DNA from: a virus
Lineage: Duplodnaviria > Caudoviricetes
Reading direction: 5' to 3' (one strand)
Length of the DNA: 64,000 nt
Virus record (IMG/VR): IMGVR_UViG_3300010356_000998
Coordinates: 44,743-108,742 of that record
Position numbers and translations under genes: made by a program. Below, piece after piece: positions 11,794 through 20,223 of the stretch. The notes beneath the pieces are model-generated. The model was given only the letters and a program-made list of their open reading frames with translations, ran no database searches and was not told where the DNA came from. Every line of letters starts with the position of its first letter. The stretch's first letter is position 1.

Positions 11794-12255
11794 TTATTTC
11801 TTTTTAGACTGTGTTTTATTCATGATCCAATTTGCAATTTCTTGCAAGTTTGGAATCAATGATTCATTTTTACCTTGAGTAATTTGCTGATCTCCAATAT
11901 GCTCACGAAGAGCATTGGCACCAGCAAAGAAACAGGCGAAAGCTGCGTTGATGTTAGCTCTTGCGAGTCTATTGAGATCAGGTGTGTCTGAAGTAGCTGC
12001 CAGTGCTACTTTTCGACCGAAATTAGTCAATCGAAGTGGTTCTCCATTTTTTAGTTCAAGATAACCGGCTTCTGTCAGATCATTCAAAGCGTTTTCCAAC
12101 AATTCTGAGTGATCTTTTGCACCTTCTCCAAAAATAATGTCATCGCAAAACTTACTTTCTGCTACTTCTTTTTCTTTCGGTTCTTGTGAAAGAAAGAAAG
12201 AAATGAGTAATGCGGTTGAAAACAGGTTTCTTTTTTTTTTAAATGTTTCTGTCAT
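11794..12255 (-). CDS. hypothetical protein, possible winged helix
   Basis: ALNDLTEAGYLE...LRLTNFGRKVA wHTH-like pattern. Confidence 0.55.
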   Translation of the reverse strand: MTETFKKKRNLFSTALLISFFLSQEPKEKEVAESKFCDDIIFGEGAKDHSELLENALNDLTEAGYLELKNGEPLRLTNFGRKVALAATSDTPDLNRLARANINAAFACFFAGANALREHIGDQQITQGKNESLIPNLQEIANWIMNKTQSKKK

Positions 12256-12339
12256 GTTAAGAAATTTAAGTAATAAATAAGAAGCTGGGTTTTGTTTTTG
12301 TTAGTAGCGATACAAAACCAGCAATGAAAAAACGCTAGG

Positions 12340-12425
12340 TACTCCGAGCGAGACTCGAACTCGCAAGAAGCTTACGCCTCCAAGGGATTTTAAGTCCCTC
12401 GTGTATACCATTCCACCACCGGAGC
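12340..12425 (-). tRNA. tRNA-Leu(UAA)
   Basis: Cloverleaf; anticodon arm AGGGA CTTAAAA TCCCT; long variable arm; TTCGAGT T-loop. Confidence 0.92.
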
Positions 12426-12490
12426 GAAAAATGTCAGATTAAAACCTATAATTAGGAAACTTCTTCTGACAAAAGTTTTATTTTTTGTAA

Positions 12491-13015
12491 TTAGTTTACA
12501 TTAAAAGCATCCGCTTCTTCTTCCACTTTTGCTGGAGTAAACGCATCTGCAGCTACAGATCCGTTATGAGTGATAAAAGTGTGCCGTGCTTCAGAAGCAG
12601 GCGTCAAAGAAACTTCACGGTAAATTGGAGACCCGTCTTTCAAAAGAACCTCATTAGTTTGAGGATTGATTTTTGGAGTTGGGTTTTTGCGAGCTGGATT
12701 TGGCGTCAAAGATTCGGTAACCTGCAATTGAAACTCAATCCCAGCTTCAGCTTCAATATTTTCAATTGTGGGCCATTCAGCTTGCGGTTTGTTGCTATAA
12801 TCAGCGTCCGTTGTTCCGAAATATTTCATTGCCTGTTCTTCGCTAAAAGAAACTACAGCGACTGCTTTTGTTTCACCCGTGATGCCTTGCGTAATTGAAA
12901 GAAGCGGATTGCTTGAACCTTTGAAAGTTTGTTGCAGCATCACATTTACTTGGTTTTTGTCAGAATTAGCGTTTGGCCAAATGCGACGTACCTGAACTTT
13001 AGAGAATGGTTTCAT
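12491..13015 (-). CDS. putative single-stranded DNA-binding protein (crAss-like)
   Basis: PKINPQTNEVL..DGSPIYR motif and acidic C-terminal tail. Confidence 0.55.
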   Translation of the reverse strand: MKPFSKVQVRRIWPNANSDKNQVNVMLQQTFKGSSNPLLSITQGITGETKAVAVVSFSEEQAMKYFGTTDADYSNKPQAEWPTIENIEAEAGIEFQLQVTESLTPNPARKNPTPKINPQTNEVLLKDGSPIYREVSLTPASEARHTFITHNGSVAADAFTPAKVEEEADAFNVN

Positions 13016-13058
13016 GTGTGAAAAAGTTGAAATTGTTAAGAGTTATATGGACTGTATT

Positions 13059-13436
13059 CTATTCAGAATCTACAAATCCATATTTTTTGAGTTTTTTTGA
13101 ATTTTCATAGGCGAATTCGACAATAGTTTTATTGTCTTCATAGCCTATTACCCGGAACTTTTCTTGTTTCGGTTTAACAGTTATTCGTTTCTCTTTTTTA
13201 GAAAGAGATTTAATAAACTCTTTTTGATACTCAGCTTTAACATCTTCAGAAATATTTTCTTCTGATATTTTACTGATCAGCATTTGCTGTTTCATCAATT
13301 GAGCTGAATTTTCTTGATACTGTTGTTTAGCGATAGCATCATCATGGTTGTTTAAAAATTTACCATTAAATACTTTCCCAACAGGTTTCAGAAAATTATT
13401 TACTATAAATTTATTATCTTTTCTATATATAATCAT
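13059..13436 (-). CDS. hypothetical protein
   Basis: Start moved to ATG 13436 because the track's upstream extension lies inside tRNA-Tyr. Confidence 0.6.
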   Translation of the reverse strand: MIIYRKDNKFIVNNFLKPVGKVFNGKFLNNHDDAIAKQQYQENSAQLMKQQMLISKISEENISEDVKAEYQKEFIKSLSKKEKRITVKPKQEKFRVIGYEDNKTIVEFAYENSKKLKKYGFVDSE

Positions 13437-13450
13437 AAAATATAATTTAG

Positions 13451-13534
13451 TGCCGGTTGATGGATTCGAACCACCCGAACGATTAAGTACCTGAGTTACA
13501 GTCAGACCCGCGACCATTTACGGAATAAACCGGC
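13451..13534 (-). tRNA. tRNA-Tyr(GUA)
   Basis: GCCGGTT/AACCGGC acceptor stem, CTGTAAC anticodon loop, long variable arm. Confidence 0.88.
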
Positions 13535-13585
13535 ATTAAAATCTTACAGTTTTTACAACTATAAGAATTATTAATTTTGATTAAA

Positions 13586-14155
13586 CTATTTATAAATTCC
13601 TTGTGATAGTACAGTAGGGATGTATGTTACGTACATTTTACAAAATTGAGGATATAATTCTAATAATCCTTTTAATGCTTTTTCAGCATCATATTTTGTT
13701 TCATATACGCCATAATGAGTGATCCAGTTACCATCTTGTAATTGACTTACTAAAAAATCTTTTGGTCTATTTTTAGCTGGAGTTTTTAAATATTCAAATC
13801 TAACAGTCCAACAATTACCATAAGACATTTTTCTAACTTTAGTACCAGTTTCAATAGTATCTACAGATAAAATTTGAATAATGTTGTAACAACCGTCAAG
13901 AATTGCATTAATACGCACTTCTTTAGTTTTTTCTACAATATCATCTTGATTTTCATAATAATGTAATACACCTGTATATTTAGGGTGTTTTGTACTACAA
14001 ATATCTGGTTTGTAGTTTTTAGGAGTTGTGATAGATACGGAATACATTGCTGGACTAGGATTTGAACTAGTTTCAACAATAGGTGGACAATATACTTGAC
14101 TGTAAATATGTACAGTCTGAAGTATTGAAATAAGAATAAAAATAATCTTTTTCAT
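13586..14155 (-). CDS. secreted hypothetical protein, SPOR-like C-terminus
   Basis: Signal peptide MKKIIFILISILQ; GVYETKYDAEKALKGL pattern. Confidence 0.5.
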   Translation of the reverse strand: MKKIIFILISILQTVHIYSQVYCPPIVETSSNPSPAMYSVSITTPKNYKPDICSTKHPKYTGVLHYYENQDDIVEKTKEVRINAILDGCYNIIQILSVDTIETGTKVRKMSYGNCWTVRFEYLKTPAKNRPKDFLVSQLQDGNWITHYGVYETKYDAEKALKGLLELYPQFCKMYVTYIPTVLSQGIYK

Positions 14156-14169
14156 TGTTTAATTTTTAG

Positions 14170-14242
14170 TGATCCCGACAGGGGTCGAACCTGTAGCCTA
14201 CAGATTAGAAATCTGTTGCACTATCCTTTGTGCTACGGGACC
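14170..14242 (-). tRNA. tRNA-Arg(UCU)
   Basis: Cloverleaf; anticodon arm ACAGA TTTCTAA TCTGT. Confidence 0.92.
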
Positions 14243-14249
14243 AGGTTAT

Positions 14250-14399
14250 TTAATGTTTACAACTACCGTCACAATCTGCAACAACTTTACATCGTTTTAC
14301 ACAATGCCAAGTTATTTTTAACAATGGTTTACAAATACATGGAAATTGATGTCCATTAATTGTAACCCAACCAGTATCGTCACAAAGTTTACATTTCAT
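14250..14399 (-). CDS. small Cys-rich putative zinc-binding protein (49 aa, not in ORF track)
   Basis: MKCKLCDDTGW...FPCIC...HCVKRC...DCDGSCKH fills the gap between two tRNAs. Confidence 0.6.
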   Translation of the reverse strand: MKCKLCDDTGWVTINGHQFPCICKPLLKITWHCVKRCKVVADCDGSCKH

Positions 14400-14414
14400 A
14401 TAAATTTATTTTAG

Positions 14415-14487
14415 TGGGCCCAGCAGGACTTGAACCTACAACCCTCAAATTATGAGTTTGGCGCTCTACCGATTGAGCTATGGGCCC
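14415..14487 (-). tRNA. tRNA-CAU, probably Ile2 (lysidine-modified)
   Basis: GGGCCCA/TGGGCCC acceptor stem, CTCATAA loop; body resembles bacterial Ile2 more than Met. Confidence 0.8.
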
Positions 14488-14530
14488 GGTGTTTTAATAC
14501 ACACTTTTAATTGTAATATAATATTTTTGA

Positions 14531-14628
14531 TGACACTAGCAGGAATTTAACCTACCACAACCGCAGAAGAACTAGTATTACGTTGGTTCGCCCACATACA
14601 AATGTAGTGTTCAGGAACATGTAGTGTC
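14531..14628 (-). ncRNA. tRNA-like RNA (acceptor stem and T-arm, non-canonical body)
   Basis: GACACTA/TAGTGTC stem plus discriminator A; GTAGG TTAAATT CCTGC T-arm; no normal D or anticodon arm. Confidence 0.55.
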
Positions 14629-14634
14629 GAGTTT

Positions 14635-14904
14635 TTAATTATAGATAGATTGTAATAATCTACCTAAAATGTGTTTGTTTTTTGGATTCCATCCGTTGAT
14701 TACTCTCATGGTGGAATCAACATATAAATTCGATAATCCACGATGTATTACATGTGGCTTACTTGAATTCATAATGTTATCTATTTGTTGAGTATTTAAT
14801 TCAGGTATTTCAAATTGTACATCAGCAAATGATTTATAAGCCTGTGTACAATCTTCATAATCTGAAATAAATAATTGCGGATGCTGTTCTGGTGATATTA
14901 TCAT
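14635..14904 (-). CDS. hypothetical protein
   Basis: 89 aa ORF with ATGA overlap to the upstream gene. Confidence 0.55.
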   Translation of the reverse strand: MIISPEQHPQLFISDYEDCTQAYKSFADVQFEIPELNTQQIDNIMNSSKPHVIHRGLSNLYVDSTMRVINGWNPKNKHILGRLLQSIYN

Positions 14905-15323
14905 GATGTTACATATTTAACAGCGTTAATGTAATCGTTTTTTAAAGGACTACCTGCATAATATTTCTTAATTCTTTTTATTACTTCTGCAGGATATTCT
15001 CCATGTATACCACTACCATTACATATCCATACTTTTCCTTTATAACCGTAAATGGTTCTTTCTTTATAACCCAAATGTCTAGATACTTTAATTTTGGGTA
15101 CATATACAATTTGGTTATAATTATAAATAATAAGACTAACTAAAACTATAAATACTGGAAAAGCAATTAATGTTTTGAAAAATTCTACTTCTATTGGATA
15201 AGTTTTCTTTTCCGAATTTAATAAAGAAATTGCTGACTCTAAATCTAATGCTAAATTATAATTTAAATAATTGTTAATTAAATTTAGCATAATTAAAATC
15301 ATTAAAAGAATTAAAAGTTCCAT
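14901..15323 (-). CDS. membrane hypothetical protein
   Basis: Two hydrophobic segments; start moved to ATG 15323 because the upstream extension lies in a structured RNA. Confidence 0.55.
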   Translation of the reverse strand: MELLILLMILIMLNLINNYLNYNLALDLESAISLLNSEKKTYPIEVEFFKTLIAFPVFIVLVSLIIYNYNQIVYVPKIKVSRHLGYKERTIYGYKGKVWICNGSGIHGEYPAEVIKRIKKYYAGSPLKNDYINAVKYVTS

Positions 15324-15348
15324 AATTAAATATTTAAGAATGATAAAA

Positions 15349-15477
15349 ATCAAAGAAGAAAAATGATAAAACTGTCTTTGTTGCATACGGGGCTCGAACC
15401 CGTAATTCAAAATCCGAAATTTTTGCGATCAACCAATTGATCTAATGCGAAGTAAGTTTTATCTAACTATCTTTGAT
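15349..15477 (-). ncRNA. Y RNA-like (YrlA-type architecture): long terminal helix capped by a tRNA-like domain
   Basis: ATCAAAGA/TCTTTGAT and GATAAAACT/AGTTTTATC helices enclose a D-arm (GATC/GATC), an anticodon-like arm and a T-arm (ACGGG TTCGAGC CCCGT); lies near the TROVE gene. Confidence 0.7.
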
Positions 15478-15554
15478 TGGTGGCGGGTACGGGACTTGAA
15501 CCCGTGATCTCCAGGTTATGAGCCTGGCGAGATACCAACTTCTACCAACCCGCT
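15478..15554 (-). tRNA. tRNA-Met(CAU), initiator-like, CCA encoded
   Basis: A1:C72 mismatch, CTCATAA loop, ACCA 3' end. Confidence 0.85.
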
Positions 15555-15569
15555 ATTTGTTTCTTCAAA

Positions 15570-15749
15570 TCACTTAATAAGTATGATTATCGCTAATACC
15601 ATCAAACTTGATACGACAGCAACCGTTGAAGTTATCCGTTCATATTTAGGGTGTGGTGTATCTTCAAGATACCTGTAAGTTAGGTTAAGTGCAGTTGCAG
15701 TAAAGGCAACTCCGAACAAAAACATCTCTATACAAAGTATCCAATTCAT
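15570..15749 (-). CDS. small membrane protein (two TM segments)
   Basis: Two hydrophobic helices; start moved to ATG 15749. Confidence 0.5.
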   Translation of the reverse strand: MNWILCIEMFLFGVAFTATALNLTYRYLEDTPHPKYERITSTVAVVSSLMVLAIIILIK

Positions 15750-15980
15750 TTCAAAAAGGGAGTCTTGATCCCTATGCACCCGCATTAGAGGAGTTCACTC
15801 GCTGGTTAATTCCAGATGTGCATCTTAACTCCATCTATCAACAGTTTTACGGTCAAGACTCTTTTTTTACCTGGTCGCCTTTCGACTTAGAGGACTTTGC
15901 CCAGAGTTTTATGGTGAGGTGTCTTTCGACAAGGATGCCATCGTTTTAGCAACCCAACTCCCAGGGACTATAACCATCGG

Positions 15981-16104
15981 TGGGGGAGGCTAGAATCGAA
16001 CTAGCGACAGTCAGCTTTGCAGGCTGATACTCTACCGATGAAACTCTTAAATAACTACCTTTCGGAGAAAATTTAAAGAGTTGTTGTAACTGAGTTACTC
16101 CCCC
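15981..16104 (-). tRNA. tRNA with GCA (Cys) anticodon and a 51-nt D-loop insertion
   Basis: GGGGGAG/CTCCCCC acceptor, ACTC/GAGT D-stem, TCAGC CTGCAAA GCTGA anticodon arm, GCTAG TTCGATT CTAGC T-arm; insert at 16037-16087. Confidence 0.8.
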
Positions 16105-16186
16105 ATTAGTTTTAAAACACTATCCCTGCATACGCACATCCGGGATCAGACGTAGACCAACGCCGTATGTTATAGTGTTTTGTATT

Positions 16187-16540
16187 TTAGGCTACTTGAA
16201 AAGTATTTTGTTTCTTAGCACCTCTTGTGCGTCTTCGATAATTGTGATTCATCTTGAGAATATCACACAATTCTCGACACTTGGTAACAAAGAAATCATT
16301 TCGATCTCTTATGGGTAATCCCTCACTGTCAAATTTCCATTGTGGATCAACCATAGCTTTACCGGCCGCTTTTGTACGACCTGTTTTGCGACAAAATTGA
16401 TCTGCTCCATGACAATAAGACATACCAATTCGAAGTTCGTCGTTAACGAAGATGCCGGCAAATGATGCACGGCTTTTGTACAAACGTTTTTTTCCGCGCT
16501 GTTCGGGCGGATTAACGTGAAAAAACATTAGCTTTTCCAT
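16187..16540 (-). CDS. hypothetical phage protein
   Basis: GMSYCHGADQFCRKTGR motif; start moved out of tRNA-Trp. Confidence 0.6.
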   Translation of the reverse strand: MEKLMFFHVNPPEQRGKKRLYKSRASFAGIFVNDELRIGMSYCHGADQFCRKTGRTKAAGKAMVDPQWKFDSEGLPIRDRNDFFVTKCRELCDILKMNHNYRRRTRGAKKQNTFQVA

Positions 16541-16570
16541 AAATTTGTTTTTAAGTGAAAAAATATTTAG

Positions 16571-16643
16571 CGAATGCGGCAGGATTCGAACCTGCAACCT
16601 TTGGTTTTGGAGACCAATACTCTACCAATTGAGCTACGCAAAC
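16571..16643 (-). tRNA. tRNA-Trp(CCA)
   Basis: TTGGT CTCCAAA ACCAA anticodon arm, G73; two U-U mismatches in the acceptor stem. Confidence 0.82.
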
Positions 16644-16732
16644 GTTTTATTTAAGATAGCCGCCCAGGACAAGTAAACTGAATTACGATCGGTGTTCCTG
16701 CTTCCTTCAGCTATACGGCTAACTTAAATTTG

Positions 16733-16807
16733 ACCTGCTAGAGAGGGCTTGAACTCCTCAACTACTTACTTATAAGGCATATACTTTACCAGTTGAACTA
16801 TATCCGC
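16733..16807 (-). pseudogene. degenerate tRNA-like sequence (UAU loop)
   Basis: GCGGATA TAGTTCAACTGGTA...CTTATAA...GTTCAAG pattern with broken stems. Confidence 0.45.
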
Positions 16808-16939
16808 CAATAGAGGTTTATCATCCTTTGATGACTTAATGGTTGTCACTGCCATTTTTCAGGTATTCTTAAGTAACCCTGTTCCATTTTCCTCTATTGA
16901 CGGAACGACTAGACTCGAATTAAATTACGCAAGCGTTTT

Positions 16940-17128
16940 TTAAGATAATTCTTTATATTTTTCAATTATTCTTATATAGAATAGAATACCACATAAAGCA
17001 TATAAGAATTCTTTTTTTGTTAAATTAGTACCATACTCATCAAGTAAATCATCTATTGACATACCTAAATTTACCAACCATTGTGATACATGAATAATTA
17101 ATAAAAATATTATAAAAAATGTTATCAT
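16940..17128 (-). CDS. small membrane protein
   Basis: Hydrophobic ORF from ATG 17128. Confidence 0.5.
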   Translation of the reverse strand: MITFFIIFLLIIHVSQWLVNLGMSIDDLLDEYGTNLTKKEFLYALCGILFYIRIIEKYKELS

Positions 17129-17140
17129 AATCGAAAAGTT

Positions 17141-17207
17141 AACGGGTAAATGGGGAGAGTTATGTTGTGACACCAAAAAGTCGAAGTAACTCTCCCCTAA
17201 CCACGTT
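17141..17207 (-). ncRNA. minimal Y RNA-like module
   Basis: AACG TGGTTA GGGGAGAGT TACTTC GAC..GTC ACAACATA ACTCTCCCC ATTTACC CGTT; same loops as 15349-15477. Confidence 0.65.
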
Positions 17208-17222
17208 TATATTTTAAAGAAT

Positions 17223-17375
17223 TTACTGTTTGCTAGGTGATGCTATTGTTAAACCTGTGCAAAATGATAATAGTAGCATGAAAATATAAAAATATTCATC
17301 ACTACTACACATTGTAACAATAACACCAATTACTGTAATAACAGTAAATAACAAAGCTTTTTGTTTATATGTCAT
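17223..17375 (-). CDS. small two-TM protein coupled to the TROVE gene (50 aa, not in ORF track)
   Basis: ATGA overlap with the TROVE stop; MTYKQKALLFTVITVIGVIV... Confidence 0.5.
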   Translation of the reverse strand: MTYKQKALLFTVITVIGVIVTMCSSDEYFYIFMLLLSFCTGLTIASPSKQ

Positions 17376-19015
17376 ACAAATTCAATTGATTTAACTGTTT
17401 GAATTATTTCATTTGGATTGAATTCCACATGTTTGATTTGTTCAAACACATGATTTCCATATCCATAGATATAATGTACTTTTGGCCCAACTAATTGAGT
17501 TGTGCCGTAGGCTGCTAAATCAACTGAATACACGTAAGGTCTTCCACACTTTTCTATATAATCCTGATATGCTTTGTAAGTATTACCTACATTACATTCA
17601 TGATCAGAGAAAATGAATACACGATCGTACTTTTTAGTAGAAGCGAGTTTCCAAGCTTCTGCTAAATTAGTTGAGCCCATTTCAGATTTAAATCCAGAAG
17701 CAATTGTAAACACATCATCACTGATTTTATAGTTTACATAATTTGCTTTAGACCCAAATCTAATAATATCCGCATTTGTAGCTTTAGCGATAGTAGCTGC
17801 TAACAAACACGCTTTATCACCAGCGTATGATTTGTAAGTAACTGCATTATTTCGATTGCCGTTCTTTACATAACCATTTAGCATCCACATTGAACCAGAC
17901 TGATCAACAATAACAAGAGTATTACCTGTAAGCAATTCAGCGAAGTTTGGAATACTTTGCTTATAACCTACTGTTAATTCTTGTACAATTCTTCTTGATT
18001 CAGGAGAATTGAATTCATTGTTAATTACTTCAATAGCAATGTCGAAATGATATGGCATTATTTTACCTTGTATAACCTTGTTAGGGTCAGATACAAGAGC
18101 ACATAACATATTTACAGTATCTCTTGTCGGATTTGACAAAAGAATACTACGGATATTGCGCAGTGCTGCCATAATACCAAGACGACCTTCTGACAGCAAC
18201 TGATTCCAGTTTTGCTCTTTAGCTTCTTGTAGAAGTTGTTGAGCTTCTTGCTGGTTAATATTACCTTCACGTACAGCACGAGCAATTTCTTGCCCAGCTT
18301 CACTCTGAGCATTCTCCCATGTATGAGCAGGAATGTTATTTCCTCTCATAATATAGTCAAGTGCTGCAACACTATGTGCTTTTTCTAATGATATTTCTGG
18401 TGTTTTCCAAGGATTAGGATGCACCATATTAGCAACATCACGAATTTGTTTCGTGTATTTGCCAAAATTATACAAATCCAATCCTTCAATCGTCATAGCA
18501 AATCCTTTCTTCATGGAAGCAGGCAGGGATTTGTTATTATTCAATTTATAATATGCCATAATTTCAGACATATCGTCAGTTCTGAAAATAACACCGCCTT
18601 TCTTAGTTTTTTTATTCCAAGCAGAATAAAAATACTTTGCCCATGGTTGACCAGAAATGTATGGAGCAATTGTTACTGCAGCTACATGAGATACAGAACG
18701 TAGACCTTCTCCCAAACAGCGAGAATAAACAATACATTGTGCTGTGAAATATGGATTTTCTTTAGCACATTCGATAACAACAGCTTTCAAATTACGAATC
18801 TGTTGAGATTCTGATTTATAATACTGTTGTTCTAGTTTTAGCGTATTAAGCATAGAAAGTAGTTTTAACCACTTATCCATATTATACGCTGGTGAGCCAC
18901 TGATATTAGTAGCTTTTGGTGGTGCTGCTGTTTGTTTCTTTTTATGTGAAACAAATGAAGCAGTTTGATTCTTACCATCCAACTTTTTTTTGAGTTCGGA
19001 GTTAAATTTTGACAT
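17372..19015 (-). CDS. TROVE-domain / vWA RNA-binding protein (Ro60/Rsr-like)
   Basis: N-terminal TNISGSPAY, HTWE, MAALRNIRSI motifs of TROVE; vWA MIDAS VDQSGSM, GSTN, IFSDHE; C-terminal SVDLAAYG. Confidence 0.85.
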   Translation of the reverse strand: MSKFNSELKKKLDGKNQTASFVSHKKKQTAAPPKATNISGSPAYNMDKWLKLLSMLNTLKLEQQYYKSESQQIRNLKAVVIECAKENPYFTAQCIVYSRCLGEGLRSVSHVAAVTIAPYISGQPWAKYFYSAWNKKTKKGGVIFRTDDMSEIMAYYKLNNNKSLPASMKKGFAMTIEGLDLYNFGKYTKQIRDVANMVHPNPWKTPEISLEKAHSVAALDYIMRGNNIPAHTWENAQSEAGQEIARAVREGNINQQEAQQLLQEAKEQNWNQLLSEGRLGIMAALRNIRSILLSNPTRDTVNMLCALVSDPNKVIQGKIMPYHFDIAIEVINNEFNSPESRRIVQELTVGYKQSIPNFAELLTGNTLVIVDQSGSMWMLNGYVKNGNRNNAVTYKSYAGDKACLLAATIAKATNADIIRFGSKANYVNYKISDDVFTIASGFKSEMGSTNLAEAWKLASTKKYDRVFIFSDHECNVGNTYKAYQDYIEKCGRPYVYSVDLAAYGTTQLVGPKVHYIYGYGNHVFEQIKHVEFNPNEIIQTVKSIEFV

Positions 19016-19019
19016 TTTT

Positions 19020-19214
19020 TTAATTTTCAAGATGAACAATTTTTACTACATCATCTGCATAAAAAACTGTTTGATCATCTTCGTTATAAAAATCTGGTTC
19101 TATAGGAATAATTAAGTCTATTGCAAAATTTTTATCATCGTAATAAAATTTAATTATTCCTGTAAACCAATTTTCATTAATAGTTTTAAAAGCAACAATT
19201 GATCCTTTTTGCAT
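19020..19214 (-). CDS. hypothetical protein
   Basis: Short ORF between tRNA-Thr and the TROVE gene. Confidence 0.5.
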   Translation of the reverse strand: MQKGSIVAFKTINENWFTGIIKFYYDDKNFAIDLIIPIEPDFYNEDDQTVFYADDVVKIVHLEN

Positions 19215-19229
19215 AATAATTTGATTTAG

Positions 19230-19302
19230 AGCCACGTAAAGGATTCGAACCTTTGACCTTCTGATTACAAATCAAGCGCTCTACCAACTGAGCTAACGCG
19301 GC
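19230..19302 (-). tRNA. tRNA-Thr(UGU)
   Basis: Cloverleaf with TTTGTAA anticodon loop. Confidence 0.88.
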
Positions 19303-19534
19303 ATAAAATTGACACCTGGTTACCAACCTACGCAGGGTGTCCTACGCTCTTTATTCCAGAAGAGTAACTGTGATTTAATTATGACGGTAATTAAATGCAT
19401 AAAAACCGACAAGTTTCTCATTAACTATTAAACTTGTAAAAACTACAGACAGCTTATTCTGCAGGACGAGTAATCTCAGGTGACTACCAACCCAATCGTT
19501 TGTTTCATCCAGACCGATTAACTGGAGAGATTGG

Positions 19535-19771
19535 TTAGATCTCATTATCTTTGTCCGTAAAATTAAAAATGGAAATTACTGCATTATCTTTAGTAAATGC
19601 AGTTGCAGCAAGATCACCGTTAGGTTCTCTGCTAAGATCAATATCGTGAGCTCCAGTCTCTTTCAGTTTATTGTGAAGAGCTTTTTCAGCTTCTTCTTTT
19701 GAATCGAAAGCTTCTGGGCTACCAATATCCCCATCTTTAATGGTTGTTTGAAATATTTTTGCCATGATCAT
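19535..19771 (-). CDS. hypothetical protein
   Basis: 78 aa ORF. Confidence 0.55.
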   Translation of the reverse strand: MIMAKIFQTTIKDGDIGSPEAFDSKEEAEKALHNKLKETGAHDIDLSREPNGDLAATAFTKDNAVISIFNFTDKDNEI

Positions 19772-20223
19772 TAATATTTAGTCCACCAGCAAGTATCACA
19801 AGTAGTGTGGTATTTAGTACCTCCGATACCGTTTACGTTAGCTGGTTTATTTTTAATCCAATAATATTTCCTATGGTTTACCAGACCAATATACGGAAAT
19901 TCAATAACAATCATCGGACGATTGTTAGAGAACCCATAAATGATCTCCCATCTGCTCATATTTGTCCAGACAGTCATCTGAACTCCAGGTATCGATTGTT
20001 CGAAACCCAAAATCTCTTCGATAAATAGAACAGATTCTTCTTGTCCACTTACGACGAGTCTGTGTGACTCAAAGTCGAAACCTAGTTGAATAGTATCACC
20101 AGCTTCAATAGACTGATATTCATCAGTTTCTACTGTAGTATTGGCGTTGAAAATGATACTATTTCTTTGAGCAAATAGCATAGAGCTAAATGCCATCAAT
20201 GCGATGAATAAAACGTTCTTCAT
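19771..20223 (-). CDS. secreted hypothetical protein
   Basis: Bacteroidota-type signal peptide ending LFA-Q. Confidence 0.6.
   Translation of the reverse strand: MKNVLFIALMAFSSMLFAQRNSIIFNANTTVETDEYQSIEAGDTIQLGFDFESHRLVVSGQEESVLFIEEILGFEQSIPGVQMTVWTNMSRWEIIYGFSNNRPMIVIEFPYIGLVNHRKYYWIKNKPANVNGIGGTKYHTTCDTCWWTKY

What the first reader, a model, noticed from the sequence alone, without database searches (positions are those of the whole stretch)
15981..16104. tRNA(GCA) with a circularly permuted Y-RNA-like module grafted into its D-loop
Seen in sequence: all four tRNA stems are perfect. A 51-nt insert (ACAAC AACTCTTTAA ATTTTCT CC GAAA GG TAGTTA TTTAAGAGTT TCATC) sits between AGTT and GGTA. Removing 16037-16087 leaves an exact 73-nt tRNA with the canonical D-loop AGTTGGTA. 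The insert is the neighbouring module with its open end closed by a GAAA tetraloop, so the tRNA itself becomes the payload. The discriminator is A, whereas U73 is the established CysRS identity element, so charging with Cys is doubtful. Inference: this is either a stable tRNA-Y RNA chimera tethered to Ro, or a new type of protein-dependent tRNA intron.
Basis: partly seen in the sequence, partly recalled or inferred. Interest (0 to 1): 0.9.

Follow-up and report, generated by a model that had tools for sequence, protein, structure and literature searches.

The report
tRNA-shaped Y RNA, phage Ro60
This phage gene encodes a complete tRNA shape carrying, in its D-loop, a loop-closed copy of the arm found in the small RNAs beside the phage's Ro60 gene; it belongs to a conserved, phage-only RNA family that I did not find described.

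Summary
On the minus strand, 16104->15981 is a 124-nt RNA with four perfect tRNA stems, anticodon GCA, A73 and a 51-nt hairpin between D-loop positions 17 and 18. Deleting it in silico gives an ARAGORN tRNA-Cys. The insert is a GNRA-capped circular permutation of the module in the two ordinary Y-like RNAs beside the phage's Ro60 gene.

It is not a one-off. A covariance model finds 48 copies (40 distinct) in Ro60-encoding phages, with covariation in the acceptor, cap, anticodon-like and T helices.
- 21 of 31 IMG/VR records found by RNA pattern alone encode Ro60, against 0 of 29 control records.
- Only 2 of the pattern's 78 matches in about 185,000 prokaryotic species genomes were confirmed, and one is probably a mis-binned jumbo phage.
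- The insert's motifs are the most conserved part, the anticodon triplets vary widely, and half of the bodies fail as tRNAs without the insert.

I read it as a retained Ro60-docking arm on a tRNA mimic, not an intron. Ro60 binding, expression, end processing and charging are untested, because no RNA runs were available.

This scan has noted sister designs on other DNA, including one other D-loop case. I found no paper describing this topology.

The parts
15981..16104 (-). Whole 124-nt tRNA-shaped RNA (G1 at 16104, discriminator A73 at 15981; CC follows at 15980-15979)
   Evidence: Sequence; MFE cloverleaf plus hairpin; covariance model R1 93.3 bits, E 3e-19
16098..16104 (-). Acceptor stem 5' strand GGGGGAG; pairs with 15982-15988
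   Evidence: 7/7 pairs. Acceptor helix 99.6% paired in 40 distinct homologues, with changes on both sides at 6 of 7 pairs
16092..16095 (-). D stem 5' strand ACUC; pairs with GAGU at 16029-16032. U8 A9 lie at 16097-16096 and D-loop AGUU at 16088-16091
   Evidence: An equivalent 4-bp D stem (GUUU/AAAC) occurs in many homologues
16037..16087 (-). 51-nt insert = capped, circularly permuted Y-type module. Order: ACAAC linker (16083-16087), stem strand AACUCUUUAA (16073-16082), loop AUUUUCU (16066-16072), cap CC-GAAA-GG (16058-16065), loop UAGUUA (16052-16057), return strand UUUAAGAGUU (16042-16051), UCAUC (16037-16041)
   Evidence: The same elements occur in ordinary modules. Cap helix 95.8% paired, CG<->UA 20:20. 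Stem sequences differ between homologues and stay complementary
16029..16036 (-). GGUA (G18 G19 U20 A21) and D stem 3' strand GAGU
   Evidence: A GG after the module co-occurs with a canonical T loop in the family, 27/30 against 0/9
16011..16027 (-). Anticodon arm UCAGC-CUGCAAA-GCUGA; GCA at 16018-16020
   Evidence: The helix covaries in the family, while the triplet varies
15989..16005 (-). T arm GCUAG-UUCGAUU-CUAGC
   Evidence: T helix 98.8% paired with compensatory changes
15982..15988 (-). Acceptor stem 3' strand CUCCCCC
17372..19039 (-). Phage Ro60 (TROVE + vWA) gene, same strand, ending 1.27 kb upstream of the RNA
   Evidence: PF05731 23.6 bits. PHROG 850, E 6e-35. 50-63% identity to proteins that sources name 60 kDa SS-A/Ro. 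Profile hits PDB 9KOP/9L5Y and 1YVP
17141..17207 (-). Ordinary hairpin-type module directly after Ro60: stem, UGGUUA, 11-bp stem, CUUCGA loop, return strand, AUUUACC, stem
   Evidence: Fold -27.8 kcal/mol, z -4.9. 94.6% identical to L002
15349..15477 (-). Ordinary open-ended module whose payload is the tRNA-like domain that ARAGORN calls tRNA-Arg(UCG)

Best explanation
The locus encodes a stable, unspliced small RNA of about 124 nt. It is a tRNA-shaped Y RNA.

Shown:
- It has a fully canonical cloverleaf with every residue needed for the L-shape: U8, A14, G15:C48, G18 G19, and the T loop.
- Between D-loop positions 17 and 18 it carries a 51-nt arm. The arm is the clade's Y-RNA module with its normally open terminal stem closed by a GNRA tetraloop.
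- It is one member of a conserved family confined to Ro60-encoding phages.

Inferred:
- It is transcribed with the Ro60/tRNA array, on the same strand and 1.27 kb downstream of Ro60.
- Its ends are made as for the neighbouring tRNAs: RNase P at G1, then 3' trimming and CCA completion after A73-CC.
- The arm projects from the tRNA elbow and docks the phage Ro60.
- The free acceptor and anticodon ends act as a tRNA mimic. This mimic would tether Ro60, and whatever Ro60 recruits, such as host PNPase, to a tRNA-recognising factor, or would titrate that factor.
- This copy is probably not a Cys-decoding tRNA.
For: Anatomy.

Module identity:
- The ordinary modules read stem1-UAGU(U/A)A-stem2-UUACUUCG-payload-A/C-rich linker-stem2'-AUUUUCU-stem1'. 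They occur at 17141-17207 and 15349-15477, and next to Ro60 in 15 of 55 related loci even under a strict regex.
- The insert has the same elements in permuted order.

Family:
- Model R1 finds 48 copies, 40 distinct, at 58-115 bits.
- 86.5% of cells are paired against 66.6% in shuffles. 23 of 27 pairs change on both sides. None of 500 shuffles reaches any measure, and slid controls give 40-52%.
- Caps are GNRA or UUCG tetraloops on covarying 2-4 bp stems.

Ro60 link:
- In Ro60-anchored loci, all strong hits lie on the Ro60 strand within 3.3 kb.
- 21 of 31 IMG/VR records found by RNA pattern alone encode Ro60, including 6 of 6 that are at least 90% complete. None of 29 records with non-family pattern matches does.
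- Only 2 of 78 pattern matches in about 185,000 prokaryotic species genomes are family members.

Retention rather than splicing:
- 17 of the 22 invariant alignment columns lie in the insert, although the search pattern enforced part of this.
- Anticodon triplets vary over at least 11 identities.
- 19 of 39 bodies are not tRNAs after deletion of the module.
- One subfamily has lost the T loop and the GG together.
- A sister form places the same capped module at the anticodon-arm position (L124/L128).

Precedent: YrlA RNAs are Ro60-bound tRNA mimics encoded within 4 kb of Ro60 on the same strand, and M. smegmatis YrlA is cut by RNase P and receives CCA (PMC4201824).
Against: - There are no expression data. 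No RNA run holds the sequence, so the size of the mature RNA is unknown.
- Ro60 binding is inferred from co-occurrence only.
- The module lacks the published GNCGAAN0-1G / GGUCCGA motif in strict form. The window copy has UCAUCGGUA, and Rfam YrlA does not match.
- This copy keeps a flawless tRNA body, which is also what an intron-bearing tRNA gene would show.
- Family retrieval used a pattern drawn from the insert, so the insert's conservation is partly ascertained. Members found independently through Ro60 loci (L055, L025, L041, L061) deviate at a few of those positions.
- The covariation controls are not phylogeny-aware.
Confidence: 0.72

Rival explanations
1. It is an intron-bearing tRNA-Cys gene. 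The 51-nt hairpin is removed by an unknown, possibly Ro60-assisted, endonuclease and ligase to give a 73-nt tRNA.
For: Exact removal of 16037-16087 restores a canonical D-loop AGUUGGUA, and ARAGORN then calls tRNA-Cys(GCA). 20 of 39 family bodies likewise pass ARAGORN after deletion. L016:7470-7540 is a 71-nt insert-less tRNA with the same D stem and T arm at the syntenic place.
Against: The insert's motifs are the most conserved part of the family, while the 'exons' drift. 19 of 39 bodies are not tRNAs without it. No bulge-helix-bulge can be drawn at the junctions, since both flanks are 9-nt single strands. At 51 nt it is far too small for a group I intron, and Rfam gives no intron hit. The phage has no RtcB. 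The A73 of this copy contradicts Cys identity (established knowledge: U73 is the major CysRS determinant).
Confidence: 0.07
2. It is a working, aminoacylated tRNA that keeps the arm. In this reading the arm is a Ro60 handle on a decoder or on a bait for host tRNA-targeting nucleases, rather than the mark of a pure mimic.
For: All L-shape tertiary residues are kept, and the anticodon loop has 7 nt with U33 and A37. Most members have U at loop position 2 and a purine at position 6. CCA is encoded in about a third of members, and C74 in all. Some discriminators fit the triplet: GUC with G73, UUC with G73, CAU/GAU/UAU with A73. D-loop position 17 is a naturally length-variable, solvent-facing site (established tRNA structure).
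Against: For this copy, A73 conflicts with GCA. The 'Ser' and 'His' members lack the long variable arm and G-1 that their bacterial synthetases use (established identity rules). Most members have A8 instead of U8. A bulky arm at the elbow should clash with elbow-binding partners such as the ribosome and the RNase P specificity domain (inference).
Confidence: 0.12
3. The arm binds a partner other than Ro60, for example the conserved basic 117-aa protein encoded at 16187-16540, and Ro60 linkage is only genomic neighbourhood.
For: The 117-aa ORF sits between Ro60 and the RNA in all ten close relatives examined and is highly conserved. The module does not carry the canonical Ro60 motif in strict form (PMC4201824).
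Against: The family extends to distant Ro60 phages, including jumbo phages of 173-430 kb, where the association tested was with Ro60 itself. Whether the small ORF travels with the RNA there was not tested. The ORF has no recognisable RNA-binding fold.
Confidence: 0.06
4. It is a dead tRNA gene disrupted by a mobile palindromic element or by recombination with a neighbouring Y RNA gene.
For: The identity is mismatched (GCA with A73). The same module occurs three times within 2 kb, which offers recombination substrates.
Against: All four stems and all tertiary residues are intact. 40 distinct homologues show compensatory changes. The sequence is identical in three runs. There is one permuted copy per locus at a conserved position, not scattered copies.
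Confidence: 0.03

Closest known systems
YrlA (Y RNA-like A; Rfam RF02553; Chen et al. 2014, PMC4201824; structure preprint 10.1101/312249)
   Same: A small RNA encoded within a few kb of Ro60 on the same strand, in bacteria and phages. It combines a protein-docking stem with a tRNA-like domain that keeps the D/T elbow interactions, and it probably evolved from tRNA.
   Different: In YrlA the 5' and 3' ends form the docking stem, the acceptor stem is closed by a loop, the T arm precedes the D arm, and there is no anticodon arm. Here the order is that of a normal tRNA, with open acceptor ends, A73(-CC) and a full anticodon arm, and the docking module is loop-closed and leaves from the D-loop. 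The loop motifs (UAGUNA, UUCU, UUAC[AU]UCG) differ from GNCGAAN0-1G. The Rfam model does not match.
[quoted passage not shown]
   Same: A Y RNA with a 7-bp acceptor stem that is treated as a tRNA by RNase P and the CCA-adding enzyme, giving an open acceptor end.
   Different: There the open end arises by cutting a closed loop, leaving two base-paired pieces. Here the open end is encoded as such and the RNA is one chain.
Thermus phage phiLo Ro60 with Yrl1/Yrl2 (PMC12135203)
   Same: A phage-encoded Ro60 with phage-encoded partner RNAs next to the gene. Binding and a RYPER-like complex with host PNPase were shown in vitro. The window's Ro60 profile hits its structure 9KOP.
   Different: Yrl1 and Yrl2 are ordinary stem-bulge-stem Y RNAs with a CGAA motif. 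They have no tRNA body and no capped module.
Archaeal tRNA introns at non-canonical positions, and permuted tRNA genes of red algae
   Same: They interrupt or rearrange tRNA genes, and some archaeal introns sit in the D-loop region (my own knowledge).
   Different: Those depend on bulge-helix-bulge motifs and a splicing endonuclease and are removed. No such motif is present here, the setting is a bacteriophage, and the comparative pattern argues for retention.
Sister designs noted earlier in this scan (AI notes, unpublished)
   Same: Loop-closed Ro60-type hairpins grafted onto normally ordered tRNA bodies beside viral Ro60 genes. One note (e1-5627641) describes a 51-base hairpin in the D-loop of a tRNA-Val gene.
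   Different: Most of those carry the arm at the anticodon-arm position or between the T arm and the acceptor. The motif set UAGUNA/UUCU/UUAC[AU]UCG and the family defined here were not compared with them.

Membership tests
YrlA (RF02553) | Encoded within about 4 kb of Ro60 on the same strand | tested here: met
   The RNA starts 1.27 kb downstream of the Ro60 stop, on the same strand. All strong homologues lie within 3.3 kb on the Ro60 strand.
YrlA (RF02553) | tRNA-like domain with D and T arms able to form the elbow | tested here: met
   G18 G19, UUCGAUU T loop, G15:C48, U8, A14 are present. GG and T loop co-occur in the family.
YrlA (RF02553) | 5' and 3' ends pair to form the Ro60-binding stem; acceptor-like stem closed by a loop; T arm 5' of D arm | tested here: not met
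   The ends lie in an open 7-bp acceptor stem, the module is closed by GAAA, and the arms are in normal tRNA order.
YrlA (RF02553) | GNCGAAN0-1G motif in the 5' strand | tested here: not met
   The window copy has UUUCAUCGGUA. The family consensus is UUAC[AU]UCG[GAC], and only some ordinary modules read CUUCGAA.
YrlA (RF02553) | Score at or above the Rfam gathering threshold (69 bits) | tested here: not met
   No YrlA match at 15981-16104 even at E <= 10.
Y RNA in the functional sense (Ro60-bound partner RNA) | Physical association with Ro60 | not testable with these tools
   Only genomic association could be tested: 21/31 against 0/29 records.
tRNA (RF00005) | Cloverleaf with four arms and conserved tertiary residues | tested here: met
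   ARAGORN calls tRNA-Cys(GCA) after deletion of the insert.
tRNA (RF00005) | D-loop of normal size (about 7-11 nt), recognised by tRNA finders as it stands | tested here: not met
   The D-loop is 59 nt. ARAGORN finds nothing. Rfam gives only a partial, mis-registered 33.4-bit hit.
tRNA-Cys | U73 discriminator, the major CysRS identity element (established knowledge) | tested here: not met
   Position 73 is A (15981).
Group I tRNA intron | P1-P9 catalytic core, usually more than 200 nt, normally in the anticodon loop | tested here: not met
   51 nt, in the D-loop, with no Intron_gpI match.
Bulge-helix-bulge (archaeal-type) intron | Two 3-nt bulges separated by a 4-bp helix at the exon-intron junctions | tested here: not met
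   Both junctions lie in 9-nt unpaired stretches of the MFE and centroid folds. No 4-bp helix joins them by eye.

The most novel reading that the evidence does not exclude
These RNAs may be genuine CCA-ended tRNAs, chargeable in at least some members, that carry Ro60 as cargo at the elbow. In that case phages would couple the Ro60 RNA-surveillance ring directly to the tRNA pool. Examples: as bait or a sensor for host anticodon nucleases and other tRNA-targeting defences, or to bring Ro60 (and PNPase) to synthetases, EF-Tu or ribosomes. The varied anticodons would then reflect which host tRNA each phage needs to imitate.
Probability: 0.2. Interest if true: 0.9.

Novelty: new variant of a known kind. 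Interest (0 to 1): 0.7.

Why it matters
The role of the tRNA-like half of bacterial Y RNAs has been open since 2014, and no effector that binds it is known. This family offers a natural experiment. The same presumed Ro60-docking arm is attached to a complete, normally wired tRNA with free acceptor and anticodon ends, at the elbow. The elbow is the very surface proposed to bind the YrlA effector. If the arm is retained, it shows which tRNA surfaces must stay free, and it gives a compact construct for pull-downs and cryo-EM with Ro60.

The finding also matters for annotation. tRNA finders either miss these genes, or, for the ordinary modules, call their payloads tRNAs, as with 'tRNA-Arg(UCG)' at 15379-15451. 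The restriction of the family to phages, including jumbo phages, suggests a role in infection rather than housekeeping.

Tried and rejected
- Close relatives by DNA: a megablast of 12000-20000 against GenBank phages gave no match.
- An exact tRNA-plus-gap pattern in IMG/VR gave no match.
- A single-protein Ro60 scan of IMG/VR found nothing. It worked only with an alignment.
- Exact core-motif scans of IMG/VR and of JGI metagenomes returned only chance matches inside coding sequence.
- No RNA holder was listed among public runs, so expression could not be examined. Contigs of run X4 stop inside the insert, which says nothing.
- RtcB (PF01139) is absent from the 99%-complete phage record. The host was not examined.
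- Rfam at E <= 10 has no family for the insert or for the ordinary modules.
- The sigma-70 promoter and intrinsic terminator scan of 15300-17500 gave no more than shuffles do.
- The small ORF 16187-16540 has no Pfam or PHROG family. Its AF2 model has pLDDT 79. Foldseek against the PDB gave nothing at E <= 0.001.
- 'Relatives' cannot be drawn for a virus record.
- A single-sequence search of the PDB with Ro60 was blank. The profile search worked.
- I first read L002, L003 and L020 as showing that homologues lack a D stem. One search corrected this, because many members have GUUU/AAAC.
- The module's main stem, helix 2, scores only 65% paired, because the model alignment is out of register between subfamilies. 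A register-free check shows 6-7 of 7 pairs in almost all members, but its shuffle control is weak in this AT-rich sequence (6.5 against 5.7).
- The resemblance of CCGAAAGGUAGU to the 5' end of human Y RNAs (recalled from memory) is rejected as coincidence, because relatives read GCAA or GUAA there, as expected of a GNRA cap.

Full report
**Setting**

The window is the right-hand 64 kb of a 108.7-kb IMG/VR phage record judged 99% complete. The finding lies in a minus-strand array of tRNA genes and small ORFs.

The array surrounds a 555-aa gene at 17372-19039. Several results identify this gene as a Ro60 homologue:
- Pfam TROVE, 23.6 bits.
- PHROG 850 'RNA-binding protein', E 6e-35.
- 50-63% identity to hundreds of proteins, several of which their sources name 60 kDa SS-A/Ro.
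- A profile of the clade hits the solved Ro60 of Thermus phage phiLo (9KOP/9L5Y, E 2e-6) and Xenopus Ro60 (1YVP, E 1e-5).

**The observation**

- acceptor GGGGGAG/CUCCCCC
- U8 A9
- D stem ACUC/GAGU
- D-loop AGUU ... GGUA, interrupted by 51 nt (16087-16037)
- A26
- anticodon arm UCAGC-CUGCAAA-GCUGA
- variable loop CUGUC
- T arm GCUAG-UUCGAUU-CUAGC
- A73, followed by CC

How tRNA finders and folding treat it:
- ARAGORN does not find it.
- Rfam's tRNA model gives only a partial 33.4-bit match.
- The minimum-energy fold is the cloverleaf with a long hairpin in the D-loop (z = -3.5).
- With the 51 nt deleted in a script, ARAGORN calls a tRNA-Cys(GCA).

Logan contigs of three activated-sludge runs carry the identical sequence across 15800-16300. 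Two may be the source sample and one is independent. An assembly artefact is therefore unlikely.

**What the insert is**

The window holds two RNAs of an 'ordinary' design, at 17141-17207 and 15349-15477. Their order is:
1. a terminal stem
2. U(A/G)GUUA
3. an 8-11 bp stem
4. UUACUUCG
5. a payload
6. an A/C-rich linker
7. the return strand
8. AUUU(U/A)C(U/C)
9. the terminal stem's return

The payload of the second RNA is what ARAGORN and Rfam call tRNA-Arg(UCG) at 15379-15451.

Even a strict regular expression finds this design next to Ro60 in 15 of 55 related loci. The stems differ in sequence and the loops are conserved.

The insert reads ACAAC, return strand, AUUUUCU, CC-GAAA-GG, UAGUUA, stem strand, UCAUC. 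This is the same module written from its 3' half to its 5' half, with the open terminal stem replaced by a 2-bp stem and a GAAA tetraloop.

**Relatives**

I first fetched contigs that encode the closest Ro60 homologues.
- L002, L003, L020 and L071 carry the same capped module inside a tRNA-like scaffold, at the same place downstream of a conserved 117-aa ORF.
- L016 has, at that place, a 71-nt tRNA without the module that shares the window's D stem and T arm.
- L004, L019 and others have an ordinary open-ended module there.

An alignment-based Ro60 scan of IMG/VR gave 47 more loci. A degenerate pattern of the capped module gave 89 IMG/VR matches.

From 31 sequences I built covariance model R1 with a hand-written structure. 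It finds 48 copies, 40 of them distinct, at 58-115 bits. The window copy scores 93.3 bits.

**Covariation**

Counts on the model alignment:

| Measure | Observed | Control |
|---|---|---|
| Cells forming standard pairs | 86.5% | 66.6% in shuffles; 40-52% when partners are slid |
| Pairs with changes on both sides | 23 of 27 | none of 500 shuffles reaches this |
| Acceptor helix paired | 99.6% | - |
| Cap helix paired | 95.8% (CG and UA at 20:20) | - |
| T helix paired | 98.8% | - |

None of 500 shuffles reaches any of the measures. The anticodon-like helix also covaries.

The main stem of the module scores only 65%. The alignment shows this is a register problem between subfamilies. A register-free check finds 6-7 of 7 pairs in nearly all members, with at least ten different stem sequences between a conserved ACU/AGU base. 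Its shuffle control is weak in this AT-rich context.

Caps are GNRA or UUCG tetraloops on covarying stems.

Two caveats apply. The alignment is fitted to the model, and the controls ignore phylogeny.

**Family anatomy**

The family consensus runs:
- a 7-bp acceptor, GGGG(G/A)AG or GGCGAG(A/G)
- two unpaired bases, mostly AA (UA in the window)
- often a 4-bp D stem, GUUU/AAAC in many members
- an A-rich stretch
- the capped module
- UUAC(A/U)UCG
- GG(U)A
- a 5-bp stem with a 7-nt loop, U at position 2 and mostly A at position 6
- a short variable loop
- a canonical T arm
- N73, mostly A, always followed by C and in about a third of members by CCA

The GG after the module co-occurs with a canonical T loop in 27 of 30 members, against 0 of 9 members that lack one (Fisher p = 1e-6, not corrected for relatedness). 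This is what an elbow contact predicts.

The window copy is the most canonical member, with U8, A14, G15:C48 and a G+C-rich D stem.

A sister form in 364-kb phages keeps a complete D arm and puts the capped module where the anticodon arm would be (L124/L128).

**Link to Ro60**

- In the Ro60-anchored loci, every strong hit is on the Ro60 strand and within 3.3 kb of the gene. This is the criterion Chen et al. used for YrlA (PMC4201824).
- Of 31 IMG/VR records found through the RNA pattern alone and confirmed by the model, 21 encode Ro60, including all 6 that are at least 90% complete. The ten without Ro60 are estimated 2-39% complete.
- Of 29 IMG/VR records that matched the same pattern but not the model, none encodes Ro60.
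- In one genome each of about 185,000 prokaryotic species, the pattern matched 78 times, but only two matches are family members. One sits on a 410,106-bp contig of the same length as an IMG/VR jumbo-phage record.

The family is therefore essentially phage-borne and tied to Ro60.

**Retained arm or intron?**

The comparative pattern favours retention:
- 17 of the 22 invariant columns in the first alignment fall inside the insert. My search pattern enforced part of this. Members found only through Ro60 loci still keep most of these positions.
- The anticodon triplets are free to vary: GCA, GAU, UAU, CAU, UGA, GUG, GUA, GAA, UGG, GUC, UUC, CCU and others.
- When the module is deleted in silico, 20 of 39 bodies pass ARAGORN and 19 do not.
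- The 'Ser' and 'His' bodies lack the long variable arm and G-1 that their bacterial synthetases use (established identity rules).
- The window copy pairs GCA with A73, although U73 is the main CysRS determinant (established knowledge).
- No bulge-helix-bulge can be drawn at the junctions. The insert is far too small for a group I intron and Rfam sees none. The phage has no RtcB.

I cannot exclude splicing without RNA data, and no RNA run was listed.

**How it most likely works**

Shown:
- the fold potential
- the module's identity with the neighbouring Y-type RNAs
- the conserved family
- its confinement to Ro60 phages

Inferred from the YrlA precedent (PMC4201824; 10.1101/312249) and from the phiLo Ro60-Yrl-PNPase work (PMC12135203):
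- The RNA is made from the Ro60/tRNA array and trimmed like a tRNA.
- It folds into an L-shape.
- It presents the arm from D-loop position 17/18, a naturally variable, outward-facing spot at the elbow.
- Ro60 docks on that arm.
- The free acceptor and anticodon ends mimic a tRNA for some tRNA-recognising factor.

Which residues Ro60 would touch is open. The conserved UUAC(A/U)UCG(R) follows the 5'-type strand of the stem and in ordinary modules often reads CUUCGAA. This recalls the GNCGAA/CGAA motif but does not match it strictly.

**Comparison and novelty**

The closest known family is YrlA. The function class and genomic setting are the same. The wiring is the reverse, with open acceptor and closed docking stem. 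The exit point (the D-loop) and the motifs differ, and the Rfam model does not match, so I do not file it as YrlA.

Full-text searches for Y RNA, Ro60, YrlA, TROVE, phage and permutation found no description of this topology. The library lacks most subscription papers.

Earlier notes of this scan, which are AI notes that I did not verify, report sister designs beside viral Ro60 genes on other DNA. One is a 51-base D-loop hairpin in a tRNA-Val gene. The class is therefore recurrent within the scan.

I rate it a new variant of a known kind, with interest 0.7. The anatomy and the Ro60 link are solid and give a direct handle on an open question. Expression, binding and function remain untested.

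Noticed in passing
window 15349-15477 (-): The 'tRNA-Arg(UCG)' that ARAGORN and Rfam call at 15379-15451 is the payload of an ordinary open-ended Y-type module (stem, UAGUUA, stem, UUACUUC ... UUUUCU, stem). The module starts right after tRNA-Met, so this is probably not a free tRNA.
   Followed up: partly
window 17141-17207 (-): A hairpin-type Y-like RNA lies directly after the Ro60 stop (fold z = -4.9). It is 94.6% identical to L002:9652-9724, and equivalents follow Ro60 in L003, L016, L019 and L020.
   Followed up: partly
window 16187-16540 (-): A conserved basic 117-aa protein (FHVNPP ... DQFCRKTGR motif) sits between Ro60 and the chimera in all ten close relatives. It has no Pfam or PHROG family. 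Its AF2 model has pLDDT 79, and the PDB fold search gave no match at E <= 0.001.
   Followed up: partly
window 16108-16186 (-): A 79-nt nested stem-loop (10-bp outer stem, z = -2.6) lies between the small ORF and G1 of the chimera. Unrelated hairpins occupy the same spot in L002, L016 and L071. It could be a processing or termination signal.
   Followed up: no
window 15560-15980 (-) and 16690-16935 (-): These are G+C-richer intergenic stretches with many short GAAA-capped helices and tRNA-like fragments. There is no Rfam match at E <= 10 and no DNA similarity in the relatives fetched.
   Followed up: no
L124:8735-8875 and L128 (364-kb phage records): This is a sister design with a complete D arm (UAGCUCAGUUGGUAGAGC), open acceptor and T arm, and the same capped module where the anticodon arm would be. 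A second family copy lies at L128:3720-3856.
   Followed up: partly
L016:949-1089 and L016:246-280: A related Ro60 phage contig carries a Hatchet ribozyme match (57.7 bits, threshold 51) and a DUF805b RNA match (38.1 bits, threshold 35.6) a few kb upstream of Ro60.
   Followed up: no
L213 (ONIZ01000001.1, 410,106 bp): A contig filed under a MAG named 'uncultured Firmicutes bacterium RUG343' has the same length as IMG/VR record UViG_2799112330_000002 and carries the family RNA. It is probably a jumbo phage binned as a bacterium.
   Followed up: no
G000:C1:38667-40942 (outside the window): ARAGORN in intron mode proposes a tRNA-Trp(CCA) with a 2195-nt intron. I did not examine it, and it is probably spurious.
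   Followed up: no
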